Of a stretch of DNA of 49,931 bases, positions 30,803 to 47,237 are shown in pieces. Each line of letters begins with the position of its first letter. Positions within the stretch are counted from its first letter, which is position 1. Source of the DNA: a virus (taxonomy: Duplodnaviria; Caudoviricetes); IMG/VR virus record IMGVR_UViG_3300048577_000498, positions 1-49,931 of that record, one strand, 5' to 3'. Below the pieces are notes generated by a model that saw only the letters and a list, made by a program, of their open reading frames with translations, had not been told where the DNA came from and searched no databases. The translations under genes were made by a program, and so were the position numbers.

Positions 30803-30816
30803 GCTACCCTATGCCC

Positions 30817-30852
30817 AAAAAGCAAAAGCCCCGGCGCGAGAGCGTCCGGGGC
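30817..30852 (-). terminator. intrinsic terminator between the nusG-like gene and the late operon
   Basis: GCCCCGG/CCGGGGC stem followed by TTTTGCTTTT on the minus strand. Confidence 0.65.
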
Positions 30853-30887
30853 TGGGCACGAGCCGACAAAAGCGTGACTCGGGGTGG

Positions 30888-31514: not shown

Positions 31515-31596
31515 CGCCTCATCTCCTATGCCGCCGCACCCGAACGCTCCGGGAAAATTTCCCCCAGCGTTCCGTTTCCACCTTCCGCAAGTCCAC

Positions 31597-31854
31597 GGGA
31601 GGATCGAAAAATCCTCCCATCGCCAGTCAGCCCAACAAAACACTCAACAGTTCAAAGCCTTAACTCCCTCTCATGGGAGGAACGGGAGGAACGGGAGGAT
31701 TATTCGTCTCTCAACGCACATGCCCGCCTCGCGCCCGCGCGCAGTGAGTCCGCATCCGAAAAATCCTCCCGTGCCGACGCAATCCTCCCGTTACCCATGA
31801 AATCAATGACTTGCAGCGGCCGGCATCCTCCCGCGAACGGGAGGAACGGGAGGA
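31597..31854. repeat. GGGAGGA iteron cluster (putative replication origin)
   Basis: Ten copies: direct at 31597, 31675, 31684, 31693, 31839, 31848; inverted at 31612, 31764, 31783, 31826; A-rich tract about 31634-31663. Confidence 0.75.
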
Positions 31855-33819
31855 TCAGAACAGGAGATCGTCATCGTCGCTGCCCCGCCGGTGATCGTTG
31901 TCGGGCGCTGCTTTTGCGTTGTCGCGCAAAGGCTTGCCCTCGTAATCGACGAAATCATTGACCGACTTGACGAGCTTGACGCCGATCCAGAACATCGACG
32001 AGATTTTGCGACTTTCGAAGCCGCGATCGGTGAGCGCCACGGAGAGCGACTTCACCGAGTAGGCCGGCCCGCCATTGACCCGGGCCCAGGCGATGTAGGT
32101 CGCGTGCATCTCGGTGACCGCGGTCTTGGTGTCCGTATCGGCCATCACCACGCAGTCTTCGAGGAAGCGGCCGACGTCGTCGCTGTCGCGGCGATAGGCG
32201 GCGGTCGCCGCTTCGATCTCTTCGCCGAGCACTAGGCCGTGTTCGAGCCAGTCGCGCAGGCCATCGAGCAGCCGGTTCAAGATGCCGCTCGCCTCGTCGC
32301 GCAGCTTGGCGCCGAGCTGGCGGTCGCGCTGTTCGGGTGGAATGAAAGCAAGCCATGGCACCAGCGTCATGCGACCCCAGATGCCTTCGTCGCTGCCGCC
32401 GATCTTGGGCTTGTAGTTGCACGCGATCGTCAGCTTGAACTGGGGGAAGAAGGTGAAGAAGCCTTTGTTGAGGTCGCGGGCATCGATCGGGTCGCCGCCG
32501 GTGACGCGCTTGATCAGCGCCTCACCGAGCTTCGAGCCCTTCTCGGGCTCGCCCGTGCGCAAGTAGCGCACACCCGGCAGCTTGGCGAGGTCGGGCGTGG
32601 CGGCGCTGCCGCTCTTCTGGATCGGGTTGGCCAGGAAGGTTTCGACCGGCACCGAGTCGGCATAGTCGCCGGCCACGTAGGCGCAGGTCTCCATGAGGAC
32701 GCCCTTGCCGTTGCGGCCCCGTCCCCAATAGACGACCATTCGTTGCTCGGACACGTCGCCAGTCAGCGAAAGTCCGTGCCACTGCATGATGAAGCGGCGC
32801 TGGCGCTCGTTGGGCTGTACCTGCAGGAGATAGCCGTCAAATTTCGGGCAGGTCGCACTCGGATCGTAGGTGACCGGCGAAATCTTGGTGATCATGTCGG
32901 CCGCGTCATGGGCCTTGAGCACGATCAAGGGTTCGTCGGGCGGACATGCTTCCGGCCGGCGCACCACCAAGGTGCCGTTCGCCACGTTGATCATCAGCGG
33001 GTCGGCGTCGAAGGCCTTCATGGGCACTTCGAGCATGCCCTTGGCGCGCTTGTTCATGGGCGAGAGGCGCGCCGACATCTCGGAGTCCCGGCCCCATTTG
33101 CGCAGCTTGCCGGCAAGCGCGATCAGTTCCTCGCGGTGTTTCTTGCGCTCCGTCGCCACCTTCTTCTTGGCCCGCTTGGCGTCGGGGTCGACGACGTTGC
33201 CGCCGCGCTTATCCTCGATCATGGGCGCGAATTCGTCCGCCTGGGCGAGGACGGCCTTGGCCTCCTCCTGGACCATGCGCACGGTTTCGTGTTCGGCGCG
33301 CAGCACGTAGCCCTCGGCGCCGTCGCGCGACCAGCGCTTGCCGTCGAAATACAGCCATCCCAGGCCCTGGCACCATTTCAGGCGATCACCGAAGCGGGCG
33401 ACGAAGCGCTCCACATTGCCGAGGTCCGTCTGCGGCAGCCAGGCCAGCCGCCGGTTCAATTCGTCGCCGCCGCGCCCGCTCCCCTGCCCGCTAACTTTTT
33501 CGCCCAACTCTCCCGTTCGGGAGCTTTTTTTCACGCCCGCCGACGAGGAAGCGGCGACGCGCAAAGGCGCAGGCGCGGCGGCGCCGGACGGCGCGGGAGG
33601 ATCGGTGTCAGCGGGAGGAGCGGGAGCGCCTGCGGCGACGGGAGGGTCGGCGGGCGCAGCGCCATGCGCAGGGGAAGGATCGATCGGCGCGGCCGCCTGG
33701 CGGCGGCCGCCGGTCTGGTTTGCTTTGGGACGCGCGCGTGGGCGCGCGTCCGGCTGCTGCGGCGCCTCGACCGGTACGGCGGCGTCGATGATCGCGGCGA
33801 TGATTTCGAAGGAATTCAC
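31855..33819 (-). CDS. P4-family/D5-like SF3 helicase
   Basis: TDLGN..RF, INVANG, GRGRNGKG Walker A, IKRVTGGD, CNYKP, GIWGR. Confidence 0.92.
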   Translation of the reverse strand: MNSFEIIAAIIDAAVPVEAPQQPDARPRARPKANQTGGRRQAAAPIDPSPAHGAAPADPPVAAGAPAPPADTDPPAPSGAAAPAPLRVAASSSAGVKKSSRTGELGEKVSGQGSGRGGDELNRRLAWLPQTDLGNVERFVARFGDRLKWCQGLGWLYFDGKRWSRDGAEGYVLRAEHETVRMVQEEAKAVLAQADEFAPMIEDKRGGNVVDPDAKRAKKKVATERKKHREELIALAGKLRKWGRDSEMSARLSPMNKRAKGMLEVPMKAFDADPLMINVANGTLVVRRPEACPPDEPLIVLKAHDAADMITKISPVTYDPSATCPKFDGYLLQVQPNERQRRFIMQWHGLSLTGDVSEQRMVVYWGRGRNGKGVLMETCAYVAGDYADSVPVETFLANPIQKSGSAATPDLAKLPGVRYLRTGEPEKGSKLGEALIKRVTGGDPIDARDLNKGFFTFFPQFKLTIACNYKPKIGGSDEGIWGRMTLVPWLAFIPPEQRDRQLGAKLRDEASGILNRLLDGLRDWLEHGLVLGEEIEAATAAYRRDSDDVGRFLEDCVVMADTDTKTAVTEMHATYIAWARVNGGPAYSVKSLSVALTDRGFESRKISSMFWIGVKLVKSVNDFVDYEGKPLRDNAKAAPDNDHRRGSDDDDLLF

Positions 33820-34070
33820 CGCTCGTTCCTACCCTCATAGGCCCGCACCAGCGTCAGAATGCCGTCCGCAACTTCGATGGCGCGGACGCAGGTACGCGGT
33901 TCGCCAAGCTCCTGGCGGCGCTCACGCGCTCGCTTTGCGCGTTCCTCGCAATCGCATTCTCCACCATAGGCGAAGGCGCAGATCCGGTAGGCGATCGCCG
34001 TGCGGGCGTCGACGTGGTCGAGCTCGGCGACGCACGGCAGGAGGCCGGTATGGCGATCGAAGGCAACCAT
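33816..34070 (-). CDS. small Cys-rich hypothetical protein
   Basis: 84 aa, five Cys; overlaps the helicase start. Confidence 0.5.
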   Translation of the reverse strand: MVAFDRHTGLLPCVAELDHVDARTAIAYRICAFAYGGECDCEERAKRARERRQELGEPRTCVRAIEVADGILTLVRAYEGRNER

Positions 34071-34079
34071 CGGCGTGGC

Positions 34080-34310
34080 CTACTTTCCGATATTGCGCAG
34101 CGCCGCGGCGATGGCAACCGCGGTGTGCGGCGGCAGCGATACGTAGGGTGGCGACACGTTCGTCAAGAGGAGATCGCCGTCGCGGGGCTTCCAGGGGTCG
34201 AACGGGCACCATCCGTCACGTATCCGGCGCGCTCCGTAGGCGCGAGCAAGCTCGTCCTTGTAGCGGGTCTTTCCCGTCGCAGGTCCGCCGTAGATCACCG
34301 TGATGCTCAT
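34080..34310 (-). CDS. small protein with P-loop-like motif
   Basis: VIYGGPATGKT in a 76 aa ORF. Confidence 0.55.
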   Translation of the reverse strand: MSITVIYGGPATGKTRYKDELARAYGARRIRDGWCPFDPWKPRDGDLLLTNVSPPYVSLPPHTAVAIAAALRNIGK

Positions 34311-35482
34311 GCCGCCTCCTTCACCATCTCGTCGAAGTCCTTATCCGCCGGCGCCCATGCGGTGCGCACCTTGCGGCCGTCCCGCGCGTAGCGAGCGGTG
34401 GCGCGAGCGAGCGCGCATTGCGTCGTGAAGCGGTCGGAGGTCGAGTCGCCCAGGAGCACCAGGTCGGTGACGCTGTCCGGGATCTCGATCGCGGGCGCGG
34501 CGAGATCGGGCACCGGCCCGGGTACGCGTTGCGGTCGGCCCTTGTCGCTCTTGAGCGAGGGGTGAGCCCAGGTCGCCGCCGACTTGCCGCCGAGATTGCC
34601 AAGGTCGACGGAGGTCCAGAACGCCGTCGATGTAAGATCGCGGCCGACCCTCTCGAGCGCCAGACCGACCGCCCGCACCTTTTCGATGCCCTCGCCGAGG
34701 ATGAGCGTCGTCGGCGCTTCGACCTTGATCAGCTCGATCCAGTAGCCTTCTTTCGAGCCCCTCACCTTCTTGGCCGGCAGAGGCTCGCCGGCGGCGTCCA
34801 GGAGGTGGAGCTTGCCGTTCGGCCGGGAGAGGTCGAGATAGGTGAAGTGTAGCCCGCGGAATCGGCCATCGGCGCCGACGATCGGCGCCACCATGGCGGG
34901 GGCGCGGGCGAGGATGTCGCCGCGATCGGCGCCCTGGCTATAGTAGGGCATTTCCCGCACTAGTCGCAGCCGTGAAGGCACGGCGACGTCGACGCCGAGG
35001 CGCAGGCGCAAATAGGCCTTGAGTATGTCGGCGTCGGGGATGGCGCGGTGCCAGATGTCGTAGAGCCGGCCGCGCTCGCGCTCCCGATAGGCGGCCTCGT
35101 CGGCCTGGCGCTTGGCCGCTGCGGCGGTGCGCGCGGCCGCCTCCTCGGCAAGCCGCGTCTGGTCGTCGTCCGAAAGCTTGGCCTCGCGATCGGGCGGCGG
35201 CTCGCCGTTGATGAACTCGCATGCGGTGACGAAGTCGAGCGAGCGCGCCATCATGACGAGCCCGATGCCGTCCCCGCCGCCGCACTTCCGGCAATTGTAG
35301 ACATTCTTGGTCAGGTTGATGGCGAAGCGGTCGTCGCCGCCGCAGCCCGGGCGCGGACACGGGCCGGCGAGCTCGCGCGGTGCGATCTTCTTCAAGCTGA
35401 GCTGCAGCATGCGGGCGACGTCGTCGATCGGCCGCAGCGCCGCGCGCTCCTTCCAGGCGTCGAAGGCCAGGTCGGAGATCAT
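34307..35482 (-). CDS. P4-alpha-type zinc-finger/Toprim primase
   Basis: GPCP..CGG.DRF...CRKC..GDGI zinc domain, LGEGIE and LGD.. Toprim motifs. Confidence 0.85.
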   Translation of the reverse strand: MISDLAFDAWKERAALRPIDDVARMLQLSLKKIAPRELAGPCPRPGCGGDDRFAINLTKNVYNCRKCGGGDGIGLVMMARSLDFVTACEFINGEPPPDREAKLSDDDQTRLAEEAAARTAAAAKRQADEAAYRERERGRLYDIWHRAIPDADILKAYLRLRLGVDVAVPSRLRLVREMPYYSQGADRGDILARAPAMVAPIVGADGRFRGLHFTYLDLSRPNGKLHLLDAAGEPLPAKKVRGSKEGYWIELIKVEAPTTLILGEGIEKVRAVGLALERVGRDLTSTAFWTSVDLGNLGGKSAATWAHPSLKSDKGRPQRVPGPVPDLAAPAIEIPDSVTDLVLLGDSTSDRFTTQCALARATARYARDGRKVRTAWAPADKDFDEMVKEAA

Positions 35483-35697
35483 GACGGCTGGCCTAAAAGG
35501 TGATTCAGAGCGCGGGCGAGCAGTTCGGAGTCGTGCTTGGCGTCGCTATTGTCGTCTTCGTCGACAGAACAGATGCGATGGTAGGTGTCCGGGTTCGTGT
35601 CCCAGAGCTCGTAGCTGATGTAACCGTCGTCGCGATCCTGCCGCTGGACGTCGACCGGTCCGACCGTCACCGGCCGCCTGAAGTGCTTGCCGCTCAT
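35479..35697 (-). CDS. hypothetical protein
   Basis: ATGA-coupled ORF in the early operon. Confidence 0.55.
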   Translation of the reverse strand: MSGKHFRRPVTVGPVDVQRQDRDDGYISYELWDTNPDTYHRICSVDEDDNSDAKHDSELLARALNHLLGQPS

Positions 35698-35732
35698 ATT
35701 CCCCAACCCCCTTCAGTTGATTCAGGCGCGAC

Positions 35733-36017
35733 CTATTCCCCGTCGTGGTCGATGCGCTGCTGGGTCGGATCATCGTCGGGGCCGACGAGGAACATCCACG
35801 GATGTTCGTTCACGGCCTCGCGCACCACCTCATCGGCGACGTCGAAGGCGATCGCCGCCTCGCGCACCGTGCACGGCTCGTCGCCGGGCCGCATCCACGT
35901 CCACACCTGCAGGGCGGTGAGGAAGTTGCCCCACGGGACGCCCGCCTCCTCGCCGTCGGTGAAGAAGTCGCGTCCGTAGCGCTCTCGTCTCGGGTCGCTC
36001 GTGTCCACCATCGTCAT
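35733..36017 (-). CDS. hypothetical protein, possible HTH
   Basis: TVREAAIAFDV...VREAV; coupled to the upstream gene. Confidence 0.6.
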   Translation of the reverse strand: MTMVDTSDPRRERYGRDFFTDGEEAGVPWGNFLTALQVWTWMRPGDEPCTVREAAIAFDVADEVVREAVNEHPWMFLVGPDDDPTQQRIDHDGE

Positions 36018-36430
36018 CGCCCTCCGCCCTTGAGCCGATCCATGATCCCCTTGTCGGCCATCACCCGGTCGACGAGCCGCGCCAGGCTGCGCAGCGCCAC
36101 GGCGCGGCGCAGGAGCCCCATGTGCGGCTCGGCCGGCGTCACGGCGCCGCCGGCGACCATGCGGCCCGCCATCGCCACGGCGGCGTCGACGGAGTCCTCG
36201 ATGCGCGAGGCCTCGGCGAGCGCCGCTTCGCGCATCACCGCGAGGGTGACGCCGCATTCCGCCGGCGTCTTGCAGGCGGGCTCGGCGGCGCCGGCGAGGC
36301 CGCAGCGGCCGCACCAGTGGCGCCCGTCGTAGTGTCGCGCCTCGCACCGGAAAGGATCGGCCGGATTGATTGGACCGCCGGTCGGGATGGCGCGTCCCCG
36401 TGGCGCACGCTCCGGAAAATCGCCGCTCAT
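36014..36430 (-). CDS. hypothetical protein with CxxC motif
   Basis: WCGRCG; ATGA overlaps on both sides. Confidence 0.55.
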   Translation of the reverse strand: MSGDFPERAPRGRAIPTGGPINPADPFRCEARHYDGRHWCGRCGLAGAAEPACKTPAECGVTLAVMREAALAEASRIEDSVDAAVAMAGRMVAGGAVTPAEPHMGLLRRAVALRSLARLVDRVMADKGIMDRLKGGGR

Positions 36431-36744
36431 GCGCGCACCCTTTCAGCTTCTGCCGACTCGAGACGGCCTTCGACGCGCAACTCGATCACGTCGCCGACGT
36501 CGATGATGCCGGCGGCGGTAAGCCACTCCTCGACCACCTGGCGGACCTGGTCGCGCGCCTGCCGGGCCGAGCCGGCCGGGCCGGTACGGCGCGGCCAGTC
36601 CGACAGCGCGACCGTCCACGAATAGCGAGGCCGGCCGGCGGCGGCGCCCTCGTGCACATAGCCGACGCACACCGTGCCGAGCCGCAGGGCCTCGACCCCG
36701 AGGCGCTGCGCCGTCACGGCGAGCACGGGTGCGCGGGCGGTCAT
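36427..36744 (-). CDS. hypothetical protein
   Basis: ATGA overlap with the RT stop. Confidence 0.55.
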   Translation of the reverse strand: MTARAPVLAVTAQRLGVEALRLGTVCVGYVHEGAAAGRPRYSWTVALSDWPRRTGPAGSARQARDQVRQVVEEWLTAAGIIDVGDVIELRVEGRLESAEAERVRA

Positions 36745-37739
36745 GGGTGGCCCCGCGGGATGTCCACGCCCAGGCTGCGGATCAGGTTGCGGCTGTCGGC
36801 GAAGCGGGCGTGGCCGAACCAGCCGGCGAGGAAGCGGCCGAGCGCGGCGGTGTCGCCGGCGGTGGTGAGCGCAGCGATGCGCCGGCGTGCCTTGACGACG
36901 CTGTCGCGGCGCAGGAGCTTGTGGCTCGCCCAGATCCGGTAGCCGAGGAAATTGATGCCCCGCGAGGCCGGCGCTACCTGCCAGTGCGAGAAGCGCAGGC
37001 CGAGCTCGGTGCGGGAGAAGCGCTCGATTTCGTTTTTGAGGCGGCGCAGATGGGCGGCGTCATGGCCGAGCACCACCAGATCGTCCATGTAGCGGTACCA
37101 AAAATCTTCGCCGAGCGCCTGCTGCAGGTGGCGGTCAAGGGTGGCGCCGGTATAGAGATTGGCGAACAGTTGCGACGTCAGGCTGCCGATCGGCAGGCCG
37201 ATGCCGAGGCGCGGCACCATGGCCTCGATCAGGCGCAGCGTCGCCCGGCAGGAGATCTTGGCCTCGATCAGCCGCCACAGCCGCGGCCGCTCGATCGACG
37301 CGAAGTAGCCGGAAAAATCCGTCTTGAGGAACTGCACCGGGGCGCGCCGCGCCAGCCGGCGCAGATCGCTCTGCAGCGCGACGGCGCCGGCATGCGTGCC
37401 TTTGCCGGGCCTGCAGGCGAAGCTCCGCGGCAGCAGCGTGCGCTCGAAGATCGGCCCGATGACGAGGCAGAGCGCCTGCTGGGCGACGCGGTCGCGGAAC
37501 GGCATCGCCGAGATCAGCCGGCGCTTGGGATCGAACACGTAGAACTCGCTCGGCGTGCCGGGCACATAGGTACCGTCGGCCATCTCCTCGCCGAGACGCG
37601 CCAGGTTGAGGGCGTCGTATTCCTTGAAGGCGAGATAGCCGGCCGACAGGCGTTTGCCGCGGGCCGTGAGCCCATAGGCGCGCCGCATCGTCTCCATGTC
37701 GGTGATACGGCCGATCAGGTTGCGAAAATGCTTGGCCAT
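36741..37739 (-). CDS. brt: DGR reverse transcriptase (332 aa from MAKHFRNL)
   Basis: KRRLISA.PFRDRVAQ, GKGTH, LKTDFS.YF.SI, GLPIGSLTSQLFAN (DGR-type SQ), RYMDD, FLGYRI. Confidence 0.95.
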   Translation of the reverse strand: MAKHFRNLIGRITDMETMRRAYGLTARGKRLSAGYLAFKEYDALNLARLGEEMADGTYVPGTPSEFYVFDPKRRLISAMPFRDRVAQQALCLVIGPIFERTLLPRSFACRPGKGTHAGAVALQSDLRRLARRAPVQFLKTDFSGYFASIERPRLWRLIEAKISCRATLRLIEAMVPRLGIGLPIGSLTSQLFANLYTGATLDRHLQQALGEDFWYRYMDDLVVLGHDAAHLRRLKNEIERFSRTELGLRFSHWQVAPASRGINFLGYRIWASHKLLRRDSVVKARRRIAALTTAGDTAALGRFLAGWFGHARFADSRNLIRSLGVDIPRGHP

Positions 37740-38090
37740 CGAAGGGCCCCGCCAATGTGCTGTGAAGATGCCGGCCGCGGGTCTCGAAGAGCACCGCTCC
37801 CTACGCCCCGCTCTGCCGGACCGCGCAATGTGTTCGCCGAAGCGGGACCGGCGGGCTGACCACCTGGTGCGGACGATGCCGCATGTGGCCGGCCGGCGGG
37901 GCCGTGGCCGCCGCCGAGCCGAAGGCGCGCCCACGGGGCCGCGCGCCTTGAAAGGATGGTCACCGCGGCCGCGGGCGCCGATGTCGTCGTTCGAGTTGTC
38001 CGGCCAGTGGTAGCCGACGTTCGCGCGCCGCGACCCGGCGTCGTCGTCGTTCCACCAGCTGCCGCCGAAGATCGACGCCTGCGGCTTCAT
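37740..38090 (-). ncRNA. DGR RNA (TR plus structured 3' spacer)
   Basis: TR followed by a 217-nt spacer with hairpin AAGGCGCGC/GCGCGCCTT (37922-37949); boundaries approximate. Confidence 0.65.
37957..38084 (-). repeat. DGR template repeat (TR)
   Basis: 128 nt, 121 identical to 38565-38692; every mismatch is an A in TR on the minus strand. Confidence 0.96.
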
Positions 38091-38512
38091 TGCCCCGCCT
38101 GCCCTTCCGTCCGCCCGCGGGCGGACGAACCGTGCCGGGCCGCGTCACCGCGGCCGAGCTTCTTGAGCCAGGCGCCGAGCATCCGGCCCGGCTCCGAGAG
38201 GAGTGCCAGCGCGGTGGCGTGCTGGCGCGGGGTGAGGATGCGGATGGTGTCCGCCGCCATGAAGCGCATCAGTGCGCGGAGCGTCGCGAACTCGGCGTCG
38301 ACAGCATGGAGCCGCGACACCTGGCGCGAGCGCGCCGCGTGGTAGAGGCCGCCGATCGGCAGGAACAGCGCCGCCAGCACGGTGTCGCGCAGGACGCTGT
38401 GCTGGCGCGGTGCCGTCCGGACGATCGGGTAGAGGTAGCGCACGAAGGCCTCGTATTTCTCGACGATCGCCAGTGCTTCGACGGATTGCGCCTGGTCGTT
38501 GACGATCGTCAT
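38087..38512 (-). CDS. avd: DGR accessory variability determinant
   Basis: IVEKYE....YLYP....PR.H...RD, L...DAE.A.LR..., E.GRMLGAW four-helix pattern; lies between target and TR. Confidence 0.92.
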   Translation of the reverse strand: MTIVNDQAQSVEALAIVEKYEAFVRYLYPIVRTAPRQHSVLRDTVLAALFLPIGGLYHAARSRQVSRLHAVDAEFATLRALMRFMAADTIRILTPRQHATALALLSEPGRMLGAWLKKLGRGDAARHGSSARGRTEGQAGQ

Positions 38513-38529
38513 TCCGCCGTCCTCACACG

Positions 38530-38549
38530 GCCGCCGCTGTCGCGGCGGC
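38530..38549 (-). other. DGR target-recognition hairpin/cruciform
   Basis: GCCGCCGC-GACA-GCGGCGGC: 8-bp GC stem with a GRNA loop, starting at the target stop codon. Confidence 0.85.
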
Positions 38550-39463
38550 TAGCCAAGCTGCAGGTGGTCACCGCGGCCGCGGGCGCCGAAGTCGACGTCC
38601 GAGCTGTCCGGCCAGGGGTAGCCGACGATCGCGCGCCGCGACCCGGCGTCGTCGTCGTTCCACCAGCTGCCGCCGAAGATCGACGCCCGCGGGATGTCGG
38701 GATCGCCGTCGTGCCCCCAGACCCACAGATTGCCGGTCGCCTGCATGATGCCGCTCGCCGAGGTACGCGGCGCGTCGAGGCCGGTGCGCTCGGGATCGCC
38801 ATCGGCGCTGGTGCACTCGGTGACCCCGTAGGCGGCGGCGACGAACTCGTCATAGGACAGCAGCGCCTTGCCGTGGTGGGCCATCACAACACAGGCGGCC
38901 GCATAGTCGAAGCGCCTGAAGCGGCCACCGGCTGGATCCTGCGGCTCGCTGTCGCCGTCGGCGATCTCGGCGCCGTAGACGCTGGTGCCGGCATCCATGT
39001 GGTCGACGCCGGTCAGATAGATGTCGCACCAGAACAGACCGTCACGGCCGGCGATCAGTACCATGCCGCGCGGGTCCGGACATGCGGGCCGGAAATTCAT
39101 GTCCCAGATCGAATAGGGATTGATCTCCGGCGTCACCCCGCCGCCGGCGCGGCCGATGGCGTTGCCGCCGGGCGCGTAATGGAAGCCGCCGAGGATCTCC
39201 TCGCCATAGGGCGGGCGGCCGAGTCTCACGATCTCGATCGCGTCGGCGGTGACTGCGACGCCGTAGTCGGCGCCGGGCTCGAACTGCGGCCCGTTGAGTT
39301 GGCGGGACGGCGCCGGCACCGGGGTGAGCTCGGAAAACTCACGGCCGCGGAAGACGACGCCGGCCGCGATGGCGATCGATGCCGGGCCGGTGACGACCAG
39401 CGCCGGGATATCGACATTGAGCTTGCGCAGGGCCGTGGCCGGCGGGCTGACATGCTGGTTCAT
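38549..39463 (-). CDS. DGR target: Mtd-like C-type-lectin/FGE-fold protein
   Basis: GGFHYAPG, INPYSIWD..FRP...DPRGM, FWCDIYL, QATGNLWVWG, FGGSW, GSR, GARG..DHL motifs match my recollection of BPP-1 Mtd; VR at the 3' end. Confidence 0.9.
   Translation of the reverse strand: MNQHVSPPATALRKLNVDIPALVVTGPASIAIAAGVVFRGREFSELTPVPAPSRQLNGPQFEPGADYGVAVTADAIEIVRLGRPPYGEEILGGFHYAPGGNAIGRAGGGVTPEINPYSIWDMNFRPACPDPRGMVLIAGRDGLFWCDIYLTGVDHMDAGTSVYGAEIADGDSEPQDPAGGRFRRFDYAAACVVMAHHGKALLSYDEFVAAAYGVTECTSADGDPERTGLDAPRTSASGIMQATGNLWVWGHDGDPDIPRASIFGGSWWNDDDAGSRRAIVGYPWPDSSDVDFGARGRGDHLQLG
38565..38692 (-). repeat. DGR variable repeat (VR) with G/C tract and start of IMH
   Basis: TR copy at the 3' end of the target; substitutions at 38590, 38595, 38599, 38604, 38616, 38628, 38688. 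Confidence 0.96.
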
Positions 39464-39466
39464 GCT

Positions 39467-39988
39467 TCAGGCTCCAGGTTGTGCCGGCGGCGCCGGCGGG
39501 GTGGACGAGGTGAGGTCGACAGACAGGGCGTCGGCGAGGACACGCGCGCAGAAGCGGCAGATGCGATCGGCGGCGACGTCGCGCACGCCGTCCCACTGCG
39601 CCGGATAGTCGGGCCCCTCGCCACGCCTGCCGGAATGAAAGCTGACCTGCCCGGTGGGCAGATCGACATAGAGAACGAAGCAGTGCACCGGTTGCGCCGC
39701 GTCGACGCCCCAGCCCCATGGCAAGCCGAGCACGCCGTTGTATTGCGCCAGCGCGGCGCAAAGATTGTCGAGCGCCCAGCCCTTGCGGTCATAGGCAGCA
39801 CCGCGGTAGCCGCGGCCGCGATACACCTTGGCGCGCTCGCTCGCCTTGCAAGCGCGGAACAGGTTGACTGCGATGGCGCCGATCGGCCCGCAATGCTCCA
39901 GCCGCGCGTACAGCGCCTTGGTGGCGTCGCCGTCCGAGCCGGTGTAGACGGCAATGACGTCAGGCAGGAAATCGCCGGGGCCCGTCAC
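39467..39988 (-). CDS. hypothetical phage protein
   Basis: GTG start overlapping the upstream stop; LYVDLPTGQVSFH...WDG motif. Confidence 0.65.
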   Translation of the reverse strand: MTGPGDFLPDVIAVYTGSDGDATKALYARLEHCGPIGAIAVNLFRACKASERAKVYRGRGYRGAAYDRKGWALDNLCAALAQYNGVLGLPWGWGVDAAQPVHCFVLYVDLPTGQVSFHSGRRGEGPDYPAQWDGVRDVAADRICRFCARVLADALSVDLTSSTPPAPPAQPGA

Positions 39989-40548
39989 AAATCGCCTCCC
40001 CTCGTCCGCCTGCGGCCGCGCTCGCGTCTCTCGCCGGCGGCGATGCCGAGCGCGCAGCCGCGCACGATATCTCGCCCGCGATCGTCCACATCGGGCTTCC
40101 ACCATTCCCAGGACCACGGCCAGAGGCTGCGGATCACGGGATTGCTTTCAGGGTCGCGCAGTGCCTGTCGATCGCCGCGATCGACGACGGAGGCGGCGTA
40201 GAGGTAGGCGGCGGCAGCGGCTTCGAGCTCGCCGGTGGTGTGGCTGTCGTCGTGCTCCTCGGACCAGCCTTCCTCATCGATCTGGCGGGCGCGCTCGGCG
40301 AGCGCCTTCCAGGCGAAGGGCGAGATGCGGATGTGCACGCGCAGCCGCTCCATCAGCCGCCGCCAGGCGAAGCTGCGCAGGAGCGACACCACGGTCATGA
40401 ACAGCGCGAATTCGAGGTTGTCCGAATGGCTCATCGGCAACCCCTTCCACCACACCAGGAAACCGAACTGGCAAGCGAGCGAGATAACGAAGCCGCTCGC
40501 GGTGTTGCCGCAGCTCTCCAGGAAGGATGCAAGCCGGGACTGGTTCAC
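39985..40548 (-). CDS. two-domain hypothetical protein (2-TM N-terminus plus ER.RQ..EGW..EHDD...WPW domain)
   Basis: Hydrophobic N-terminal part and Trp-rich C-terminal part. Confidence 0.65.
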   Translation of the reverse strand: MNQSRLASFLESCGNTASGFVISLACQFGFLVWWKGLPMSHSDNLEFALFMTVVSLLRSFAWRRLMERLRVHIRISPFAWKALAERARQIDEEGWSEEHDDSHTTGELEAAAAAYLYAASVVDRGDRQALRDPESNPVIRSLWPWSWEWWKPDVDDRGRDIVRGCALGIAAGERRERGRRRTRGGDL

Positions 40549-40715
40549 GCCGCCCTCTCCTCTTCTTGGGCCGCCGGCCTCTGTAGGAACAGCCGGCCGC
40601 CGATCGGCTGCTCGTCCGGAACTAGCCGCCAGCCGCAGGCGAGGTGCGGCTGGACTTCGTCGATCGGCACCATGGCGCCGGCGATGCGATTGTCGTGATC
40701 ACGCGGCGTCGTCAT
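40545..40715 (-). CDS. small hypothetical protein
   Basis: 56 aa ORF overlapping both neighbours. Confidence 0.4.
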   Translation of the reverse strand: MTTPRDHDNRIAGAMVPIDEVQPHLACGWRLVPDEQPIGGRLFLQRPAAQEEERAA

Positions 40716-43482
40716 GGCGGCCCTCGCCGGTGTCGCGTGTGTCTTCGTCATTGTCGGCGGGCGGCGGGTCGCGATGCCGGCGCAGGCCTTCCGGCAGAAC
40801 CGGGAAGTCGTCGTCGACGGACGGCGGTGCCGTCCGTGCGTAGCCGATGATCTTCGGGCCTTCCGACGCCGTCTCGCCCAGCGCCGCACGCCAGTGGTCG
40901 ACGATCGCCGCGTCCATGGCGGCGGCGCGGGCGAGGTCGGGATCAGGCCCGGCGGCGACGCGATGCTCGAAGGCGCCACAGGCACAGGTGGCGACCAGCT
41001 CGCTGGCGCCGTTGTCGCGAGTCCTGCGGATCAGGTGGCCGGCGGCGACGGCGCGATCGGCCAAGGCCTCGCCCTCTCCCGGAGCGAGGTTCGCGAGGCG
41101 CTCGACCGCCAGGGCCTGCTCGCGGGCGAGTTCCTCGCGGTGGGCGCCGGCGCGATCGTAGTCTGCGATGGCCTCCTCGATATCGACCTGGGCTGGCTTG
41201 CGGCCGCGCTTCTTGCGGGAGGTGGGAGGTGCGATCGACGGTTGATCCCGCTCGACCACGATCGGAGATGGGAATCCATGCAGCCCGCGCCCGGCCCAGG
41301 CCGAATACGCCTCATCCCAGGACGCCGGCATGCGATAGATGCTGTCACTCTCGCCGCCAGCCGCCGGCCACGCCATTGCCTCATCGAGATCCGATCGCGC
41401 CTGGTCGTCAACGGTGACGCAAAACGCTGGTCCATCGGCGCCGAGGCGACCGTAACCGTTGATGTAGCTCATCGGGGACTCGACGGCGGAGTGAAGTTCG
41501 ATTTGCATTTCTTCGTCGTGAGTGACGATTGCGCTCGTATCTCCGATCGCGACTTCAAACATGCCGCGCTGCCCCCACATCGGCACTTGGCCTATGGGGG
41601 CAGCGGTCTCTCGGCGCAGGCGCTCGGCCGGCGACTCCTCGGTTGACATCCCGAAATTCGTGCCGCCGTTCGCCTTGACCTGCAGACGTTCCAGCCGCTT
41701 AGTCTCGCGGGCGACGATCTCCTCGCGCTTGCCGGAGATCGCCGTGCCCTCGATATGCTGGAATTCCGGGCCAAGGATCGCGTCGTGCCGGCGCTGTAGC
41801 GTCACCCGATAGTCGGCGATCATCCCGTCGATGTCGTCAGGCAGGCCGGCGAGGATCCTAGCCTCGAGTTTTTTCTCGCGCAGAACGGCCAGACGCTTCG
41901 CACCGGCCTTGGTGAGGGTCGCGCGGTCGCCCGCCCCCTTGACGAGCTTTTGTTCGCGCAGTTCCTCGCGCTCGTCGATGGTCAGGCCGGCAGCCCGGCC
42001 GTCCGCGATCATTTCGAGCCGATCGAGGTCTGTGCGGACAGCGGGCGTTTCGACCGGCGCCGCCGCGTGCTTGTCCACCTGGTCGCCGTGGCCGTCCCAC
42101 AGCTCGCCCTCCCCGCCGGTCGAGAAGATCGACGCGTAGCGCGGCGCCGGGAAAGTGCGCTCCCACAGCCGATAGAATTCGTCGGGCTTCTGGGAATTGT
42201 CCCGGCGCTGGGCATTGAGCAGGGTCGACGGCGGGTCCTGGCCGAGCACGTTGGTGACCGGCTTGCCGCGCAGCAGGACGATGCAGTGCTCGGTCTTGTC
42301 GCGCAGCACCTGGCCGCGACCAAGTCTGTCCTTGGCCCAGGTCAGCATGGTCGAGGCGCGCCAGTCCGGCCCCAGGGCGGCGATCAGGCGATGGGCGGCG
42401 CCGTTGACCAGGTGATGGTTCGTGACCCAGAAGCCGAGCGAAGCGTCGGGGCCGAACAGCGGCGCCACCTGTTCGCGCATGAAGGCCTCTCCCTCCTCGA
42501 TCGCCATGGCGGGATAGGGACGCAGCGACCGCCCGCGCTCGTCGATCGAGGCTTGGTCGTCGTCGCTCTCGTGCGGCCACGGATAGTCCATCGAGCCAGA
42601 GACGTAAGGGCCGTTGCCCGGCAGCGGCGGCGGCGCCGCGCGCAGGCGGTCGGTCGCCTCCATGATCTTGAGCCGTTTGTGGGCGCCGTCGACCTTGCCG
42701 GTCCGGTTCATGTCATCGGCGAGTTTTCCGAACCGCTCCGGATCGCGTTCGGCTGCCTCGGCGACCGCTTCAGCCTTCTGCAGCGTGCGGCCGGAGATGC
42801 CGCCGATCTCGCCGACTTTGTCGGCGGTGCGACCCTTGCCGGCGACGTCGCCGGACTTCTTGCGCCCCGGCGCCGTCAGGCCGTGGCCTTTGCGCCCGTG
42901 CGCCTCGCCGGCGAGCTTGGCCTCGATCGCCCGCTTGATGGCGACCAGTTCGAGCGGCTTGAAGGGCTCGCGCTGCTCGTTCGCGTCATACTCGCCGGCG
43001 ATGATCGAATCGATGTCGACGATCGAAACCGGGATCGGCGCCTTGCCGTAGTCGCCGACCTTGGACTTTGCCCAGGCGAGCATGCGGCGCTCGCCGTCCA
43101 CCAGCGTGCCGTCGGGCGTGATGACGATCGGTTCGAGCAGCGCGCCGCGGGCATCGATCGACGCCGCGAGCGCGGCGATGTCGCCCTTGTCCTGGCGGAA
43201 GCGGTTGGCGACCTTGATGTCGGAAAGATAGCGCCGCGGGCTTTCCGTCTGCGTCAACACCGGCTGCCATACGGCTTTTCCCGCCGGCCCGGCGAGCGGC
43301 GCCAGGGCGTCGGCGAGCGACACCGGCTTTGCGGCCTTCGGTTTCGCGGGTGGCGCCTTCACGGCCGCCTTCGCGGCCTTGCGGGCCTTCGGCATCTTCG
43401 CCGCCGGCGCGCGCTTCGGCGCCTTGGCGGCCTTGCCGGGCTTCGCCTTCGTCTTCGCCGTCTTCGTCGTCTTCGCCATCAC
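40699..43482 (-). CDS. ParB-like / MT-A70 methyltransferase multidomain protein
   Basis: LLEPIVI...LVDGERR (ParB-N), DYPW, FWVTN, TWAK...G.G..LR..TEH, SQKPDEFY (MT-A70). Confidence 0.82.
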   Translation of the reverse strand: MMAKTTKTAKTKAKPGKAAKAPKRAPAAKMPKARKAAKAAVKAPPAKPKAAKPVSLADALAPLAGPAGKAVWQPVLTQTESPRRYLSDIKVANRFRQDKGDIAALAASIDARGALLEPIVITPDGTLVDGERRMLAWAKSKVGDYGKAPIPVSIVDIDSIIAGEYDANEQREPFKPLELVAIKRAIEAKLAGEAHGRKGHGLTAPGRKKSGDVAGKGRTADKVGEIGGISGRTLQKAEAVAEAAERDPERFGKLADDMNRTGKVDGAHKRLKIMEATDRLRAAPPPLPGNGPYVSGSMDYPWPHESDDDQASIDERGRSLRPYPAMAIEEGEAFMREQVAPLFGPDASLGFWVTNHHLVNGAAHRLIAALGPDWRASTMLTWAKDRLGRGQVLRDKTEHCIVLLRGKPVTNVLGQDPPSTLLNAQRRDNSQKPDEFYRLWERTFPAPRYASIFSTGGEGELWDGHGDQVDKHAAAPVETPAVRTDLDRLEMIADGRAAGLTIDEREELREQKLVKGAGDRATLTKAGAKRLAVLREKKLEARILAGLPDDIDGMIADYRVTLQRRHDAILGPEFQHIEGTAISGKREEIVARETKRLERLQVKANGGTNFGMSTEESPAERLRRETAAPIGQVPMWGQRGMFEVAIGDTSAIVTHDEEMQIELHSAVESPMSYINGYGRLGADGPAFCVTVDDQARSDLDEAMAWPAAGGESDSIYRMPASWDEAYSAWAGRGLHGFPSPIVVERDQPSIAPPTSRKKRGRKPAQVDIEEAIADYDRAGAHREELAREQALAVERLANLAPGEGEALADRAVAAGHLIRRTRDNGASELVATCACGAFEHRVAAGPDPDLARAAAMDAAIVDHWRAALGETASEGPKIIGYARTAPPSVDDDFPVLPEGLRRHRDPPPADNDEDTRDTGEGRHDDAA

Positions 43483-43492
43483 CCCCTCCTCG

Positions 43493-44722
43493 TCACTCTT
43501 GGATCTGCAGGGCGATGCCGACGCCCTTGATGACGCGGGCGCGCAGGCCGATCGCCGGCAGTTTGTGCGCCAGTACGTCTACGAATTCGGCCAGCAGCTC
43601 GTCGGCATCCGCCGGAATCCGGTTCGCCCATAGCTGCTGCTTGAGAAAGCCGTGGCCGATCGGCAGCGGCATGCCGCGCGCAAGCAGGCCGGCGAGGCGC
43701 GCCGGCATGTTGCCGACCACGACGTCGCGCGCCTGATAGGTCACCGTGTCGCGATCGAAGCGGACGGTGACGCCCTTCACCATCACAGGATCGGGGACAC
43801 GGCCGTCGACCTTGCGGGCCGGCGCCGCTTGGCGGGCTGGCGCTGCCTGGCGCCGGCCCGATACTGTCACGGAAGGCTTGGCTTTCACCGGCGACCCGGC
43901 GGTGGCGCCTTCCAGGGCGACCGCCAGCGCGGCGCGGAATGCAGTCGCGAAGGCGGCGGCCATGGACAGGCCGTGCGCCTGGGCGACCGCGCCGGCGGCG
44001 CCGACCAGCATGCCGGCGACATCCATCGCCTCGACAGCCGCATTGAGGGTCTCGCCGCGCCAGTCGGGATGTTGCGCGAGAACGTCGGTCGCGCCCATGA
44101 TGGTCGGCGCCTTGAGCTGCCCCACATGCGGGCGCAACGCCGTGAGCGCCGCCGCGAGCGCATCTTCGCCGAAGCGATCGAGGGCGCGGTGGAGCGTCTG
44201 CACCGCCATCGTCTCACCGGCGCGGATCTCGTTCCACGGTTTGGGATAGCGCAGGACCGTCACGCCGGCGCCCGCGCAGAGCTCGGTCAGCCTGCAGGCC
44301 TTGGCGTCGCCCGCCACGACAGCGGCGTGGTGAATCTGCATCGGCGAGAGCTTGGTGACGGTGCCGTTGATCGCCATGAAGGCGGCGGCCTGGTCGGCGC
44401 GAACGGCGTCGATCACCGCGCAAGGCACCTTGTCGACCTTGCACAGCGCCGCGGCGGTGATGCGATGCTGGCCATCCACGATCGCGAACGTATTGCTGCC
44501 AGCCGGCGCCACGATCGCGATATTGAACTTCGACCAGTCGAAGCCGGCGGCGATGCGGCGGACGTTGAGGCGTCCCTGCCTGGTGACCTCGCGCTGATAG
44601 GCCGGATCGATGCGCAGGTCCGCGATCGCGATCCAGCGCAGGTCCGGCGGACGGCCGAAGCTCGCGGGCGGATCGAGCGGCGCGTAGCCGGCGACATCGA
44701 TACGCTTGAGCTGCGCCGTCAT
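43493..44722 (-). CDS. ParB-like N-terminal domain protein with probable C-terminal winged HTH
   Basis: IDPAYQR, IVDGQHR, A.AF..IN; C-terminal LW...V.VL..KL...VIKGVG. Confidence 0.75.
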   Translation of the reverse strand: MTAQLKRIDVAGYAPLDPPASFGRPPDLRWIAIADLRIDPAYQREVTRQGRLNVRRIAAGFDWSKFNIAIVAPAGSNTFAIVDGQHRITAAALCKVDKVPCAVIDAVRADQAAAFMAINGTVTKLSPMQIHHAAVVAGDAKACRLTELCAGAGVTVLRYPKPWNEIRAGETMAVQTLHRALDRFGEDALAAALTALRPHVGQLKAPTIMGATDVLAQHPDWRGETLNAAVEAMDVAGMLVGAAGAVAQAHGLSMAAAFATAFRAALAVALEGATAGSPVKAKPSVTVSGRRQAAPARQAAPARKVDGRVPDPVMVKGVTVRFDRDTVTYQARDVVVGNMPARLAGLLARGMPLPIGHGFLKQQLWANRIPADADELLAEFVDVLAHKLPAIGLRARVIKGVGIALQIQE

Positions 44723-45063
44723 GGCAGACACCTCTCGGCCGCGAAGGCGCGGGCGGCGGCGGCGTAAACGTCTGGGAGGAGCACGCCGGCGATTTTTGCC
44801 CAGCGCACATAGTCCGGCCCGTCCACGCCCCCCGTGATGTCGACGAGCTTGGCAAGCGCCTGCAGAAGGAGAGCTGTCTCGGCGGCGATGAAGCGCTCGT
44901 CGGCCATCGGCCGCTCGATCGCCGCGGCGACTTCCGCGGCGAGGCGCTTGCAGTCCTCGATGCGGCCGCGGCGGGATGCCGGCCGCGCCATGATGTCGAG
45001 GGTGAGCGCGACCACCTCGTCGAGGACCTGGTGCTGGCGGCGCGGCAACACGATGTTGTTCAT
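44719..45063 (-). CDS. hypothetical protein
   Basis: ATGA-coupled ORF. Confidence 0.55.
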   Translation of the reverse strand: MNNIVLPRRQHQVLDEVVALTLDIMARPASRRGRIEDCKRLAAEVAAAIERPMADERFIAAETALLLQALAKLVDITGGVDGPDYVRWAKIAGVLLPDVYAAAARAFAAERCLP

Positions 45064-45569
45064 GGCGTCTCTCCCTCGTCGCACGGCGGCGGCTGCCGCG
45101 GCGCCGGCACGTCACCGATGATGTCGTCGAGGGGATCGCCGTCGGGCCGCATGGCGACCGCGGCGGCGCCAGCGAAAGCGGCGAAGAAGAAGATCGCGAC
45201 GGCGGCGCTCATCACCATGACGCCGATCCGGCGGGCGTCACCGTCGGCGCAACCGGTGAGCAGAAGCGCCAGCCCCGTGACCGCGATCAGGGTCACGAGC
45301 GGGCGGCGGCAAGAACCCGGGGTAACTGAAGCCGGGACCGGCCGCCGCCCTGCCGCCGCCGGGAGGGCTTCTTTCGGCGGCGGCAACGGAGCGAAGAAGG
45401 CGCGGCACCACGCCGCGTCGGCGCGGCGCCGCCTCGCCGGCCGGGCGAACGCGCGACCCTGGTCCATCTCGGCGAAAGCGAGGATGAAGAGCGCGATTCC
45501 GAGCGCGATCGCCATCATGGCGATCATCACCGCGGACTGCGCCGGCGAAAGATCGGCGTCGGGGATCAT
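45060..45569 (-). CDS. membrane protein
   Basis: Three hydrophobic segments; coupled overlaps. Confidence 0.5.
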   Translation of the reverse strand: MIPDADLSPAQSAVMIAMMAIALGIALFILAFAEMDQGRAFARPARRRRADAAWCRAFFAPLPPPKEALPAAAGRRPVPASVTPGSCRRPLVTLIAVTGLALLLTGCADGDARRIGVMVMSAAVAIFFFAAFAGAAAVAMRPDGDPLDDIIGDVPAPRQPPPCDEGETP

Positions 45570-45811
45570 CGGTCAGGCTCCACGTCGCAGGGGGGAAGAA
45601 CGGGCGCAGGCGCATGCACGGCGCCGAAAATGCCGTCGCCGAGCCGGTGCAGGCGCAGCGTGCGGGCGCCGGCGAACACGCCCGGCTCTCGCGCGATCGG
45701 CACGCCGATGAGGACGCCGAGGCCGGTGTCGACAATCGCCATCTCGCCGGCCGCGATGGCGGCGCGGACGTCCTGGAAGCCGGCGAAGTCGAAGGGGCGG
45801 CGCACGGTCAT
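45566..45811 (-). CDS. hypothetical protein
   Basis: ATGA-coupled ORF. Confidence 0.5.
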   Translation of the reverse strand: MTVRRPFDFAGFQDVRAAIAAGEMAIVDTGLGVLIGVPIAREPGVFAGARTLRLHRLGDGIFGAVHAPAPVLPPCDVEPDR

Positions 45812-46248
45812 GAGCGGCCTCCCCGTCCGGGCGCGGACCGGCGGCGCTTGAGTTCTTCGGCCTCGCGATGAAGTTCTTCCGAGCGCCGCTCGATCTCGCC
45901 GACATCATGGTCGTCGAGCATGGTCAGCCAGAAATTCGCCGTGCAGCCGTCCATCCATAGCCGCAGGAACACCTCGCCGTCGGGGCAGCGGCACAGCCGC
46001 TGATAGACCGCGCGCGAAAATCCCTGTTTACCGCCGAGCAGTCGCTCTGCCTGGCGCACGGTGACATCACCGTAGATGGACAGGTTTTGCGCCGCCTTCG
46101 GCTTCCAGAGCTTTTTGCATAGCTGGCGCACTTGGTGATCGAAGGCGGCCACCTGGTCGGAAAAACCGACCACCTGGTCGCAATTACCGACTACCTGGTC
46201 GCGGCGCGAATTTGCGTAATCGAGGAGATCGCGGGCATGCTTCGTCAT
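45808..46248 (-). CDS. putative CII-like regulator
   Basis: Position downstream of cro; HTH-like VTVRQAERLL segment; N-terminal DQV repeats. Confidence 0.5.
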   Translation of the reverse strand: MTKHARDLLDYANSRRDQVVGNCDQVVGFSDQVAAFDHQVRQLCKKLWKPKAAQNLSIYGDVTVRQAERLLGGKQGFSRAVYQRLCRCPDGEVFLRLWMDGCTANFWLTMLDDHDVGEIERRSEELHREAEELKRRRSAPGRGGRS

Positions 46249-46328
46249 GCTGCGGCTCGGGTCTGACGCGTTTCGTCGATGTGAAGGCGGATGTCGGCGC
46301 GGGCCGCGGCACAACGAGGACCCACGGG

Positions 46329-47146: not shown

Positions 47147-47160
47147 AGATGCCGAACTAC

Positions 47161-47201: not shown

Positions 47202-47237
47202 AAGACAATTTCCACATCGCATGCTGGAATCTGCAGC

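What the first reader, a model, noticed from the sequence alone, without database searches (positions are those of the whole stretch)
36741..39463. Complete, apparently active DGR with adenine-only TR/VR mismatches
Seen by manual alignment (offset 608): TR 37957-38084 and VR 38565-38692 match at 121 of 128 positions. All 7 mismatches fall on TR adenines of the coding strand and all change the amino acid (Q>R, N>I, H>P, N>S, N>D, D>V, I>F). An intact DGR-type RT (SQ and YMDD motifs), avd, a G/C tract, divergent IMH/IMH* ends (GACCA-CCTG vs GACCA-TCCT) and a GACA-loop hairpin are all present. Known: this is the BPP-1 mutagenic retrohoming layout. Inferred: the element has acted at least once.
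Basis: partly seen in the sequence, partly recalled or inferred. Interest (0 to 1): 0.9.

Follow-up and report, generated by a model that had tools for sequence, protein, structure and literature searches.

The report
Phage retroelement diversifying a non-tail binder
This temperate phage carries a complete targeted-mutation cassette (a diversity-generating retroelement) that has rewritten the binding end of a protein related to a known tail-tip receptor binder, but the protein lacks the parts that help that binder form trimers and is encoded among early replication genes, so it likely acts inside the host cell rather than on the tail.

Summary
TR and VR match at 121 of 128 positions, and all 7 mismatches sit on TR adenines (P about 2e-6). 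A bRT-like RT (53% identical to BPP-1), Avd, G/C tract, IMH/IMH*, GRNA-loop hairpin and Rfam Phage_DGR spacer are all present. It is a genuine BPP-1-type DGR that has acted; present activity of this copy is not shown. It differs from BPP-1 in three clade-wide ways. (1) The 304-aa Mtd homologue lacks Mtd residues 4-52 and the inter-protomer loop 317-333. (2) The cassette lies in the early operon, 24 kb from the tail fibre; 0 of 53 related cassettes had a virion marker nearby, and carriers have unrelated tails. (3) TR plus spacer form an open frame that starts at the avd stop and runs into or onto the RT start in 51 of 53 cassettes, without peptide conservation: likely ribosome coupling. Best reading: a hypervariable binder acting inside the cell. 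The scan earlier noted the early location and short Mtd on other DNA, and TR read-through in another clade; one clade member was catalogued in 2018 as a tail-protein DGR.

The parts
38549..39463 (-). Target gene, 304 aa: Mtd beta-sandwich plus C-type lectin domain, lacking Mtd residues 4-52 and 317-333
   Evidence: phmmer E 2e-48 to Mtd 55-380; AF2 pLDDT 92, Foldseek 1e-29, TM 0.85 to Mtd; alignment
38565..38692 (-). Variable repeat (VR), codons about 258-300 of the target; 7 substitutions opposite TR adenines
38571..38588 (-). 18-nt G/C-only tract at the 3' end of VR
   Evidence: sequence
38550..38570 (-). IMH-like segment; diverges from the TR copy after GACCA; boundaries set by analogy to BPP-1
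38530..38549 (-). DNA hairpin/cruciform, 8-bp GC stem, GACA loop (GRNA consensus)
   Evidence: consensus from PMC3240598 passages
38087..38512 (-). avd accessory gene, 141 aa
   Evidence: Pfam bAvd E 4e-24; 38% identical to BPP-1 Avd
37957..38084 (-). Template repeat (TR), 22 adenines, none at third codon positions
37942..37962 (-). IMH*-like segment at the TR 3' end; boundaries by offset from IMH
37770..37884 (-). Structured spacer RNA, Rfam RF03022 Phage_DGR
   Evidence: 64.5 bits, gathering score 50; aligns with the BPP-1 spacer
37740..38090 (-). Open frame through TR and spacer: ATG overlaps the avd stop by 4 nt and the frame continues without a stop into the RT (449 codons in all)
36741..37739 (-). 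DGR reverse transcriptase, 332 aa, intact catalytic Asp, SQ and YMDD motifs
   Evidence: E 2e-105 to bRT 8ub7; 171 of 320 identical to BPP-1 bRT
31855..46248 (-). Context: tightly coupled early operon (ParB-like, ParB-methylase, DGR, primase, D5-type primase/helicase) that contains the cassette
   Evidence: 13 of 19 junctions are -4 overlaps, largest gap 36 nt
13666..14763 (-). Context: the phage's own tail fibre gene, about 24 kb from the target, with no VR
   Evidence: PHROGs tail fibre hits; no second VR in the window

Best explanation
This is an intact BPP-1-type diversity-generating retroelement in the early operon of a temperate phage; it has rewritten adenine positions in the C-terminal lectin-fold binding site of a shortened Mtd homologue that likely works as a soluble, non-virion binder inside the host cell. 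SHOWN: all cassette parts, adenine-only TR/VR differences, the Mtd fold, loss of Mtd residues 4-52 and 317-333, the early-operon position, and an open frame from the avd stop through TR and spacer into RT. FROM ESTABLISHED DGR BIOLOGY: RT and Avd bind the avd-TR-spacer RNA, prime from the spacer, miscopy adenines, and the cDNA replaces VR at the IMH and hairpin (about 1e12-1e13 possible variants). INFERRED: the target is made early after infection or induction, is probably not an Mtd-style trimer, and binds a variable host protein, most plausibly for counter-defence or host takeover. INFERRED: the TR-spacer frame keeps ribosomes on an otherwise 347-nt untranslated gap, so that RT and the downstream primase and helicase escape polarity; its peptide is likely not functional. 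The DGR identity alone is about 0.97; the confidence given is for the whole reading.
For: DGR. Clade activity: 585 of 628 TR/VR mismatches at TR A in 53 cassettes, where A is 1214 of 6415 positions; L022, L038, L041 and L052 have identical TRs and VRs differing at 11-18 sites, all but at most one per pair at TR A. Truncation. The loop is short (10-12 residues between motifs) in 115 of 115 measurable near homologues (120 examined, 5 not measurable) and 24 or more in 31 of 32 measurable long homologues (64 examined). PMC2408619 says this loop, with Y322 and Y333, braces the neighbouring protomer; PMC6328139 says the beta-prism and beta-sandwich promote the obligatory trimer. Location: 41 of 41 short-clade loci of 10 kb or more have early, lysogeny or replication markers within 10 kb, and 0 of 53 have a virion marker. 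None of 55 recurring neighbour families has a virion gene as best PHROGs match. Long Mtd homologues sit by tail or head genes. Carriers have different tails: sheath family phrog_23 in the window and G009, phrog_165 in G001 and G006, no sheath found in G003, G005 and G008. Open frame: spacer stop-free in the TR frame in 52 of 53 (28 expected; other same-strand frames 23 and 6); 44 fused to RT over 19 different spacer lengths, 6 ending on the RT start and 1 ending 10 nt before it; ATG within 12 nt of the avd stop in 52 of 53; the conserved spacer is read in two different frames.
Against: No ligand, localisation or expression data. The target keeps the beta-sandwich, which also contributes to trimerisation, and PHROGs files it as a tail protein. 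PMC5758913 read Mtd-type targets, including one member of this clade, as tail proteins. An early gene can still encode a virion accessory. Apparent fusions to intracellular domains are weak: the ParB fusion (L011/P0122) looks like a frameshift, and the ribbon-helix-helix-like extension of L072 scored only 0.79 with no Pfam match. This copy has fewer mismatches (7 of 22 A) than the clade average (585 of 1214). The early markers were drawn from the same loci, and the 23 virion markers cannot detect every structural gene. The cassettes are related by descent, so counts are not independent. Translation of the TR frame is untested.
Confidence: 0.55

Rival explanations
1. The short Mtd is still a virion-displayed adhesin (tail or head accessory), made early and docked later through its beta-sandwich, so the DGR does tropism switching or surface attachment as in BPP-1.
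For: Same fold as Mtd, and 12 of the 18 TR-adenine codons align with BPP-1 TR-adenine codons. PHROGs class 'tail protein'. Viral DGR targets are mostly predicted tail proteins (PMC8144416 passages).
Against: It lacks the N-terminal domain and the inter-protomer loop that the structural-module homologues keep. It is never found near virion genes (0 of 53). It occurs in phages with unrelated tails, and the window's tail fibre has no tblastn hit in the fetched regions of five of them.
Confidence: 0.25
2. The target is a soluble decoy released at lysis that masks cell-surface receptors, protecting progeny from cell debris or blocking competing phages.
For: It keeps a binding site of the type that in Mtd recognises an outer-surface protein. 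The N-terminus aligns to Mtd beta-strands, so release would need lysis rather than secretion (no signal-peptide predictor was run).
Against: A lysis-time function would more naturally be encoded late. Loss of the trimer contacts would lower avidity, which PMC2408619 describes as important.
Confidence: 0.1
3. This copy is a frozen or slowly decaying element that last acted long ago.
For: Only 7 of 22 adenines differ. No population data for this VR. Decayed clade members exist, for example L013 with partial avd and no RT.
Against: 0 of 106 non-adenine positions differ between TR and VR. RT, Avd, hairpin and spacer are intact, and the bRT residues named in the cryo-EM preprint (K29, F66, R74, I76, D138, I181, G182, Q187, YMDD) are kept.
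Confidence: 0.08
4. The RT is made mainly as a 449-aa TR-spacer-RT fusion whose N-terminal part has a function of its own.
For: Fused in 44 of 53 cassettes. The window's RT ATG has no strong Shine-Dalgarno sequence.
Against: The RT start codon (ATG, TTG or GTG) is kept in 53 of 53. The spacer is read in two different frames and lacks codon-position GC bias (0.65/0.82/0.78 against 0.67/0.49/0.90 for RT). Seven cassettes stop at or beside the RT start instead of fusing.
Confidence: 0.15

Closest known systems
Bordetella phage BPP-1 DGR (mtd-avd-TR-brt; NC_005357; PDB 1yu0, 8ub7)
   Same: Gene order, RT 53% identical, Avd 38%, Mtd fold (TM 0.85), G/C tract with IMH/IMH*, 8-bp GRNA hairpin, conserved spacer RNA, similar number of TR adenines.
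   Different: BPP-1 mtd is 381 aa and lies directly behind the tail fibre gene bbp9 in the structural block. Here the target lacks Mtd 4-52 and 317-333 and lies in the early operon. BPP-1 has no ATG at the avd stop and its TR frame is not in frame with brt.
Bradyrhizobium sp. YR681 DGR (PMC5758913 supplementary table ST1, row 222; architecture B1, target category a1)
   Same: Apparently the same clade: 297-aa Mtd homologue, 57% identical to this target (P0093). The row's identifier range begins 4 nt inside the avd end, which matches the TR-fused frame.
   Different: The paper groups Mtd-type targets as similar in size to Mtd and as tail proteins, trims the RT range to exclude TR, and states that TR is not translated in vivo. 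Truncation, early location and the open frame were not discussed in the passages seen.
DiGReF structural group 3 (PMC3521204): TR overlapping the annotated RT ORF
   Same: TR lies inside an ORF continuous with RT.
   Different: Recorded there only as a layout. Here it is shown to be conserved across a clade, tied to the avd stop, and independent of peptide sequence.
Monomeric DGR variable proteins (TaqVP, TvpA, AvpA) and cyanobacterial intracellular DGR targets
   Same: They show that the CLec scaffold can work as a monomer (PMC6328139 passages). PMC7517822 concerns DGRs in regulatory pathways (search listing only).
   Different: The three monomers are described as single-domain, distant from Mtd (TaqVP about 21% to its CLec domain). 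This target is a close, two-domain Mtd relative encoded in a phage early operon.

Membership tests
DGR (BPP-1 type, CLec1, TG-avd-TR-RT) | DGR-class RT with intact catalytic residues | tested here: met
   E 2e-105 to bRT against 1e-9 or weaker for group II intron and other RT structures; motifs kept. The tree held no intron or retron RT, so class rests on these scores.
DGR (BPP-1 type, CLec1, TG-avd-TR-RT) | TR/VR pair differing at TR adenines | tested here: met
   7 of 7 at A, P 1.8e-6
DGR (BPP-1 type, CLec1, TG-avd-TR-RT) | Avd accessory gene | tested here: met
DGR (BPP-1 type, CLec1, TG-avd-TR-RT) | G/C tract, IMH/IMH* and GC-stem GRNA-loop hairpin after VR | tested here: met
   criteria from PMC3240598
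DGR (BPP-1 type, CLec1, TG-avd-TR-RT) | Structured spacer RNA between TR and RT | tested here: met
   Rfam RF03022 above gathering score; alignment with the BPP-1 spacer
DGR (BPP-1 type, CLec1, TG-avd-TR-RT) | VR at the C-terminus of a C-type lectin fold target | tested here: met
DGR (BPP-1 type, CLec1, TG-avd-TR-RT) | Ongoing RT-dependent VR variation in this element's population | tested here: inconclusive
   No run or contig covers this VR at near identity; shown only between relatives
Mtd tail-tip receptor-binding protein | N-terminal domain before the beta-sandwich (the beta-prism; its residue range is recalled, not from a call) | tested here: not met
   Mtd 4-52 has no partner
Mtd tail-tip receptor-binding protein | beta2-beta3 loop with Y322 and Y333 bracing the neighbouring protomer | tested here: not met
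   Mtd 317-333 has no partner (role)
Mtd tail-tip receptor-binding protein | Gene in the structural module beside tail or head genes | tested here: not met
   contrast
Mtd tail-tip receptor-binding protein | Homotrimer | not tested
Mtd tail-tip receptor-binding protein | Present on the virion and determines adsorption | not testable with these tools
   Needs virion proteomics and genetics
Group II intron or retron | RT closest to intron maturases or retron RTs; intron or msr-msd RNA nearby | tested here: not met
   the only Rfam match in 30000-49931 is Phage_DGR

The most novel reading that the evidence does not exclude
A widespread clade of alphaproteobacterial temperate phages has converted the Mtd tail-tip adhesin into a monomeric, cytoplasmic, antibody-like binder. 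It is diversified by a DGR built into the early operon through ribosome coupling across its own template RNA, and is used to neutralise fast-evolving host defence proteins during infection or induction.
Probability: 0.3. Interest if true: 0.85.

Novelty: new variant of a known kind. Interest (0 to 1): 0.52.

Why it matters
Phage DGR targets are generally read as tail receptor binders. A large clade whose target has lost two trimer-related parts of Mtd, sits with early genes and occurs across unrelated tail types would give phage DGRs a second job inside the cell, possibly adaptive counter-defence. It is testable in cultured rhizobial lysogens. The conserved open frame through TR and spacer also questions the usual description of this RNA as untranslated, and suggests that ribosome traffic and RT-Avd binding compete for the same transcript, which could set the mutagenesis rate.

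Tried and rejected
Read-level activity: only two small-share DNA holders were listed (0.06 of words), no RNA holder listed. Laid at 80% likeness, the near-identical pieces listed were short 151-nt contigs in the RT gene, none on VR, so the runs say nothing on activity. An exact 24-nt pattern found 0 metagenome matches; the best protein relatives are about 60% identical over most of the length. A remote second VR in the window was rejected: only TR and VR match all 106 non-A positions (next best 59), and no other 40-nt hit reached 80%. Absence of sheath family phrog_23 in 9 of 10 relatives was first read as non-contractile tails; this was wrong for G001 and G006, which carry sheath family phrog_165 (49 of 100 called ORFs scanned). 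The ParB-Mtd fusion (L011/P0122) was set aside as a probable frameshift. The RHH-like extension is a lead only. Spacer folding energy is not unusual (z = 0.48). The avd-spacer duplex test was mixed: 2 of 200 shuffles as good for the window, at a register different from BPP-1, and 39 of 200 for BPP-1 itself, so it was not used. The sigma-70 promoter scan was at chance (1 found, 1.4 expected). My GC-trained gene caller failed on AT-rich loci; these were redone with plain ORFs. Five distant cassettes (L056, L057, L059, L062, L063), BPP-1 and duplicate cassettes were left out of the counts of 53.
Full report
OBSERVATION. The repeat finder's top family in the whole window is 37957-38084 / 38565-38692, offset 608. 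On the coding (minus) strand 121 of 128 positions match and all 7 mismatches lie on TR adenines; with 22 A in TR the chance is 1.8e-6. That all are non-synonymous follows from TR design: no TR adenine is at a third codon position. The RT (36741-37739, 332 aa) matches BPP-1 bRT at E 2e-105 against 1e-9 for the best group II intron RT, is 171 of 320 identical to it, and keeps the residues named as catalytic or template-contacting in passages of the cryo-EM preprint 10.1101/2023.10.23.563531. Avd is 38% identical to BPP-1 Avd. An 18-nt G/C run, IMH/IMH* divergence and an 8-bp GACA-loop hairpin (38530-38549) follow VR, matching the 7-10 bp stem and GRNA loop rule in PMC3240598 (passages). The spacer matches Rfam Phage_DGR at 64.5 bits, gathering score 50. 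There is no second VR in the window.

SETTING. The window is a whole virus record: integrase, excisionase-like and repressor-like genes, an early operon, a NusG-like antiterminator, then terminase, head, contractile tail and lysis genes. The target protein is on record on a 302-kb contig, which fits a prophage. Named relatives are mostly Hyphomicrobiales, so an alphaproteobacterial host is likely but not shown. The cassette lies inside a chain of genes from 46248 to 31855, between a ParB-methylase and the primase; 13 of 19 junctions are 4-nt stop-start overlaps and the largest gap is 36 nt. The phage's own tail fibre gene is 24 kb away. In BPP-1, mtd directly follows the tail fibre gene.

TARGET. 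The 304-aa protein aligns to Mtd 55-380 (E 2e-48); its AF2 model (pLDDT 92) matches Mtd structures at TM 0.85. Twelve of its 18 TR-adenine codons align with BPP-1 TR-adenine codons. Two Mtd segments have no partner: 4-52 and 317-333, the latter with Y322 and Y333. PMC2408619 describes this beta2-beta3 loop as bracing the neighbouring protomer's site (passages), and PMC6328139 says the beta-prism and beta-sandwich promote the obligatory trimer (passages). That residues 4-52 are the beta-prism, and that it anchors Mtd to the fibre, is recalled and comes from no call. The loop is short in 115 of 115 measurable near homologues (120 examined) and long in 31 of 32 measurable longer homologues (64 examined); the exception is P0122, a short-clade protein with a probable frameshift fusion. 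All five structural-module homologues aligned beside BPP-1 Mtd keep the loop.

CLADE. Searches gave 67 viral and 21 genome loci. After removing duplicates, BPP-1 and five distant cassettes, 53 complete cassettes remain, the window included. The 52 with a full-length RT form one clade (FastTree support 0.96, rooted on BPP-1, no intron or retron RT included). Many have two tandem targets. Across the 53, 585 of 628 TR/VR mismatches are at TR adenines, which make up 1214 of 6415 positions; my boundary scoring penalised non-A mismatches more, so this share is slightly inflated. L022, L038, L041 and L052 share an identical TR but differ at 11-18 VR sites, nearly all at adenines: the clade is recently active. 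For context, 41 of 41 loci of 10 kb or more and 6 of 12 shorter ones have early, lysogeny or replication markers within 10 kb, and 0 of 53 have one of 23 virion markers. The early markers came from these same loci, but none of the 55 recurring neighbour families scanned has a virion gene as best PHROGs match. Long Mtd homologues lie beside portal, head, baseplate or fibre genes, and several carry fibre domains. Carriers have at least two sheath families, and three more showed no sheath; the window's fibre has no tblastn hit in the fetched regions of five of them.

OPEN FRAME THROUGH TR. An ATG overlapping the avd stop opens a frame that runs through TR in the VR frame, through the spacer and into RT, 449 codons in all. 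This is conserved. An in-frame ATG lies within 12 nt of the avd stop in 52 of 53 (4-nt overlap in 36). The spacer is stop-free in this frame in 52 of 53, against 28 expected from dinucleotide resampling and 23 and 6 in the other same-strand frames. The frame fuses to RT in 44, over 19 different spacer lengths; it ends overlapping the RT start in 6 and 10 nt before it in 1; it is interrupted in 2. The conserved spacer core is read in a second frame in 11 cassettes at five or more places on the tree, 7 of them still fused. The spacer lacks codon-position GC bias and the RT start codon is kept in all 53. So openness, not the peptide, appears to be what is conserved, with the caveat that related cassettes are not independent. 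BPP-1 lacks the arrangement.

MECHANISM. Shown: anatomy, adenine-specific past mutagenesis, truncation, location, open frame. From established DGR biology: spacer-primed reverse transcription by RT-Avd with adenine miscopying and replacement of VR; 22 adenines allow 1.8e13 DNA and 1.4e13 protein variants, about 16-fold fewer if the two adenines in the IMH region are not copied. Inferred: ribosomes run through TR and spacer so that RT and the downstream replication genes are not cut off by polarity; without this frame the avd-RT gap would be 347 nt, ten times the operon's largest. Inferred: the target is an early, probably non-trimeric, cytoplasmic binder of a variable host protein, most plausibly for counter-defence or host takeover, the kind of function recalled for lambdoid early operons. 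I put this at about 0.55, against 0.25 for a virion accessory, 0.1 for a lysis-released decoy and 0.08 for a frozen relic. No ligand or localisation evidence was obtained, and the apparent fusions to intracellular domains are weak.

COMPARISON. It works like, and is a member of, the BPP-1-type DGRs: every defining sequence feature tested is met, and only present activity of this copy is inconclusive. The target works structurally like Mtd but fails three tests for a tail-tip Mtd. PMC5758913 (outline, passages, supplementary table rows) lists 11 Mtd-homologue DGRs, one apparently from this clade (Bradyrhizobium sp. YR681), reads them as tail proteins, and says TR is not translated in vivo. PMC3521204 (passages and section 13) records TR overlapping the annotated RT ORF as a layout class. 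PMC8144416, PMC6199706 and PMC12875486 were seen as passages only. Nine literature searches listed no paper on this clade's early location, truncation or coupling. The library lacks most subscription papers, and I did not open the supplements of PMC8144416, which probably hold clade members; bioRxiv supplements were closed.

EARLIER SCAN NOTES. After I had found the truncation, location and open frame, look-ups showed three notes on other DNA with the short Mtd in an early operon and one on TR read-through in a marine phage clade. They agree but are not independent support. The missing loop, the tail-type comparison and the frame statistics for this clade did not appear in the notes shown.

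VERDICT. A real, intact DGR; ordinary in mechanism, but a new variant in target design, genomic place and translational layout. Interest 0.52.

Noticed in passing
window 40699-43482 (-): 927-aa protein with a ParB-like domain, an MT-A70 methylase domain and a long unassigned C-terminal half; related ParB-methylases occur in 26 of the loci.
   Followed up: no
window 970-1566 (+) and 1717-2562 (-): HicB-like toxin-antitoxin gene and a DNA methyltransferase at the left end of the record.
   Followed up: no
window 30888-31514 (-): NusG-like antiterminator between the replication and packaging genes, with relatives in L012 and L013.
   Followed up: no
P0087: A target that runs from VR straight into spacer-like sequence, as if VR and TR had recombined and deleted avd; the cluster has 4 member sequences.
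   Followed up: no
L002 and L012 (same contig, G001); L005 5677-10879; L079 10001-12777: Non-adjacent or multiple targets: one about 11 kb from the cassette, two 4.3 kb apart, and three in tandem.
   Followed up: partly
L013 4329-10909: Two short targets, a partial avd and no RT within the locus: probably a decayed cassette.
   Followed up: no
L072 3549-4658 and P0108: Short-clade targets with an N-terminal extension that looks like a ribbon-helix-helix; Atlas score 0.79 for L072, no matching Pfam family.
   Followed up: partly
P0088 and L024 9497-10825: One target whose C-terminus is replaced by an XRE helix-turn-helix, and one fused behind a nucleoside deoxyribosyltransferase-like domain (weak, E 0.2).
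   Followed up: partly
L057, L059, L062, L063: These distant AT-rich cassettes also have an ATG just after the avd stop in the TR frame, but the frame ends about 50-80 codons later, so a translated TR may be wider than this clade.
   Followed up: no
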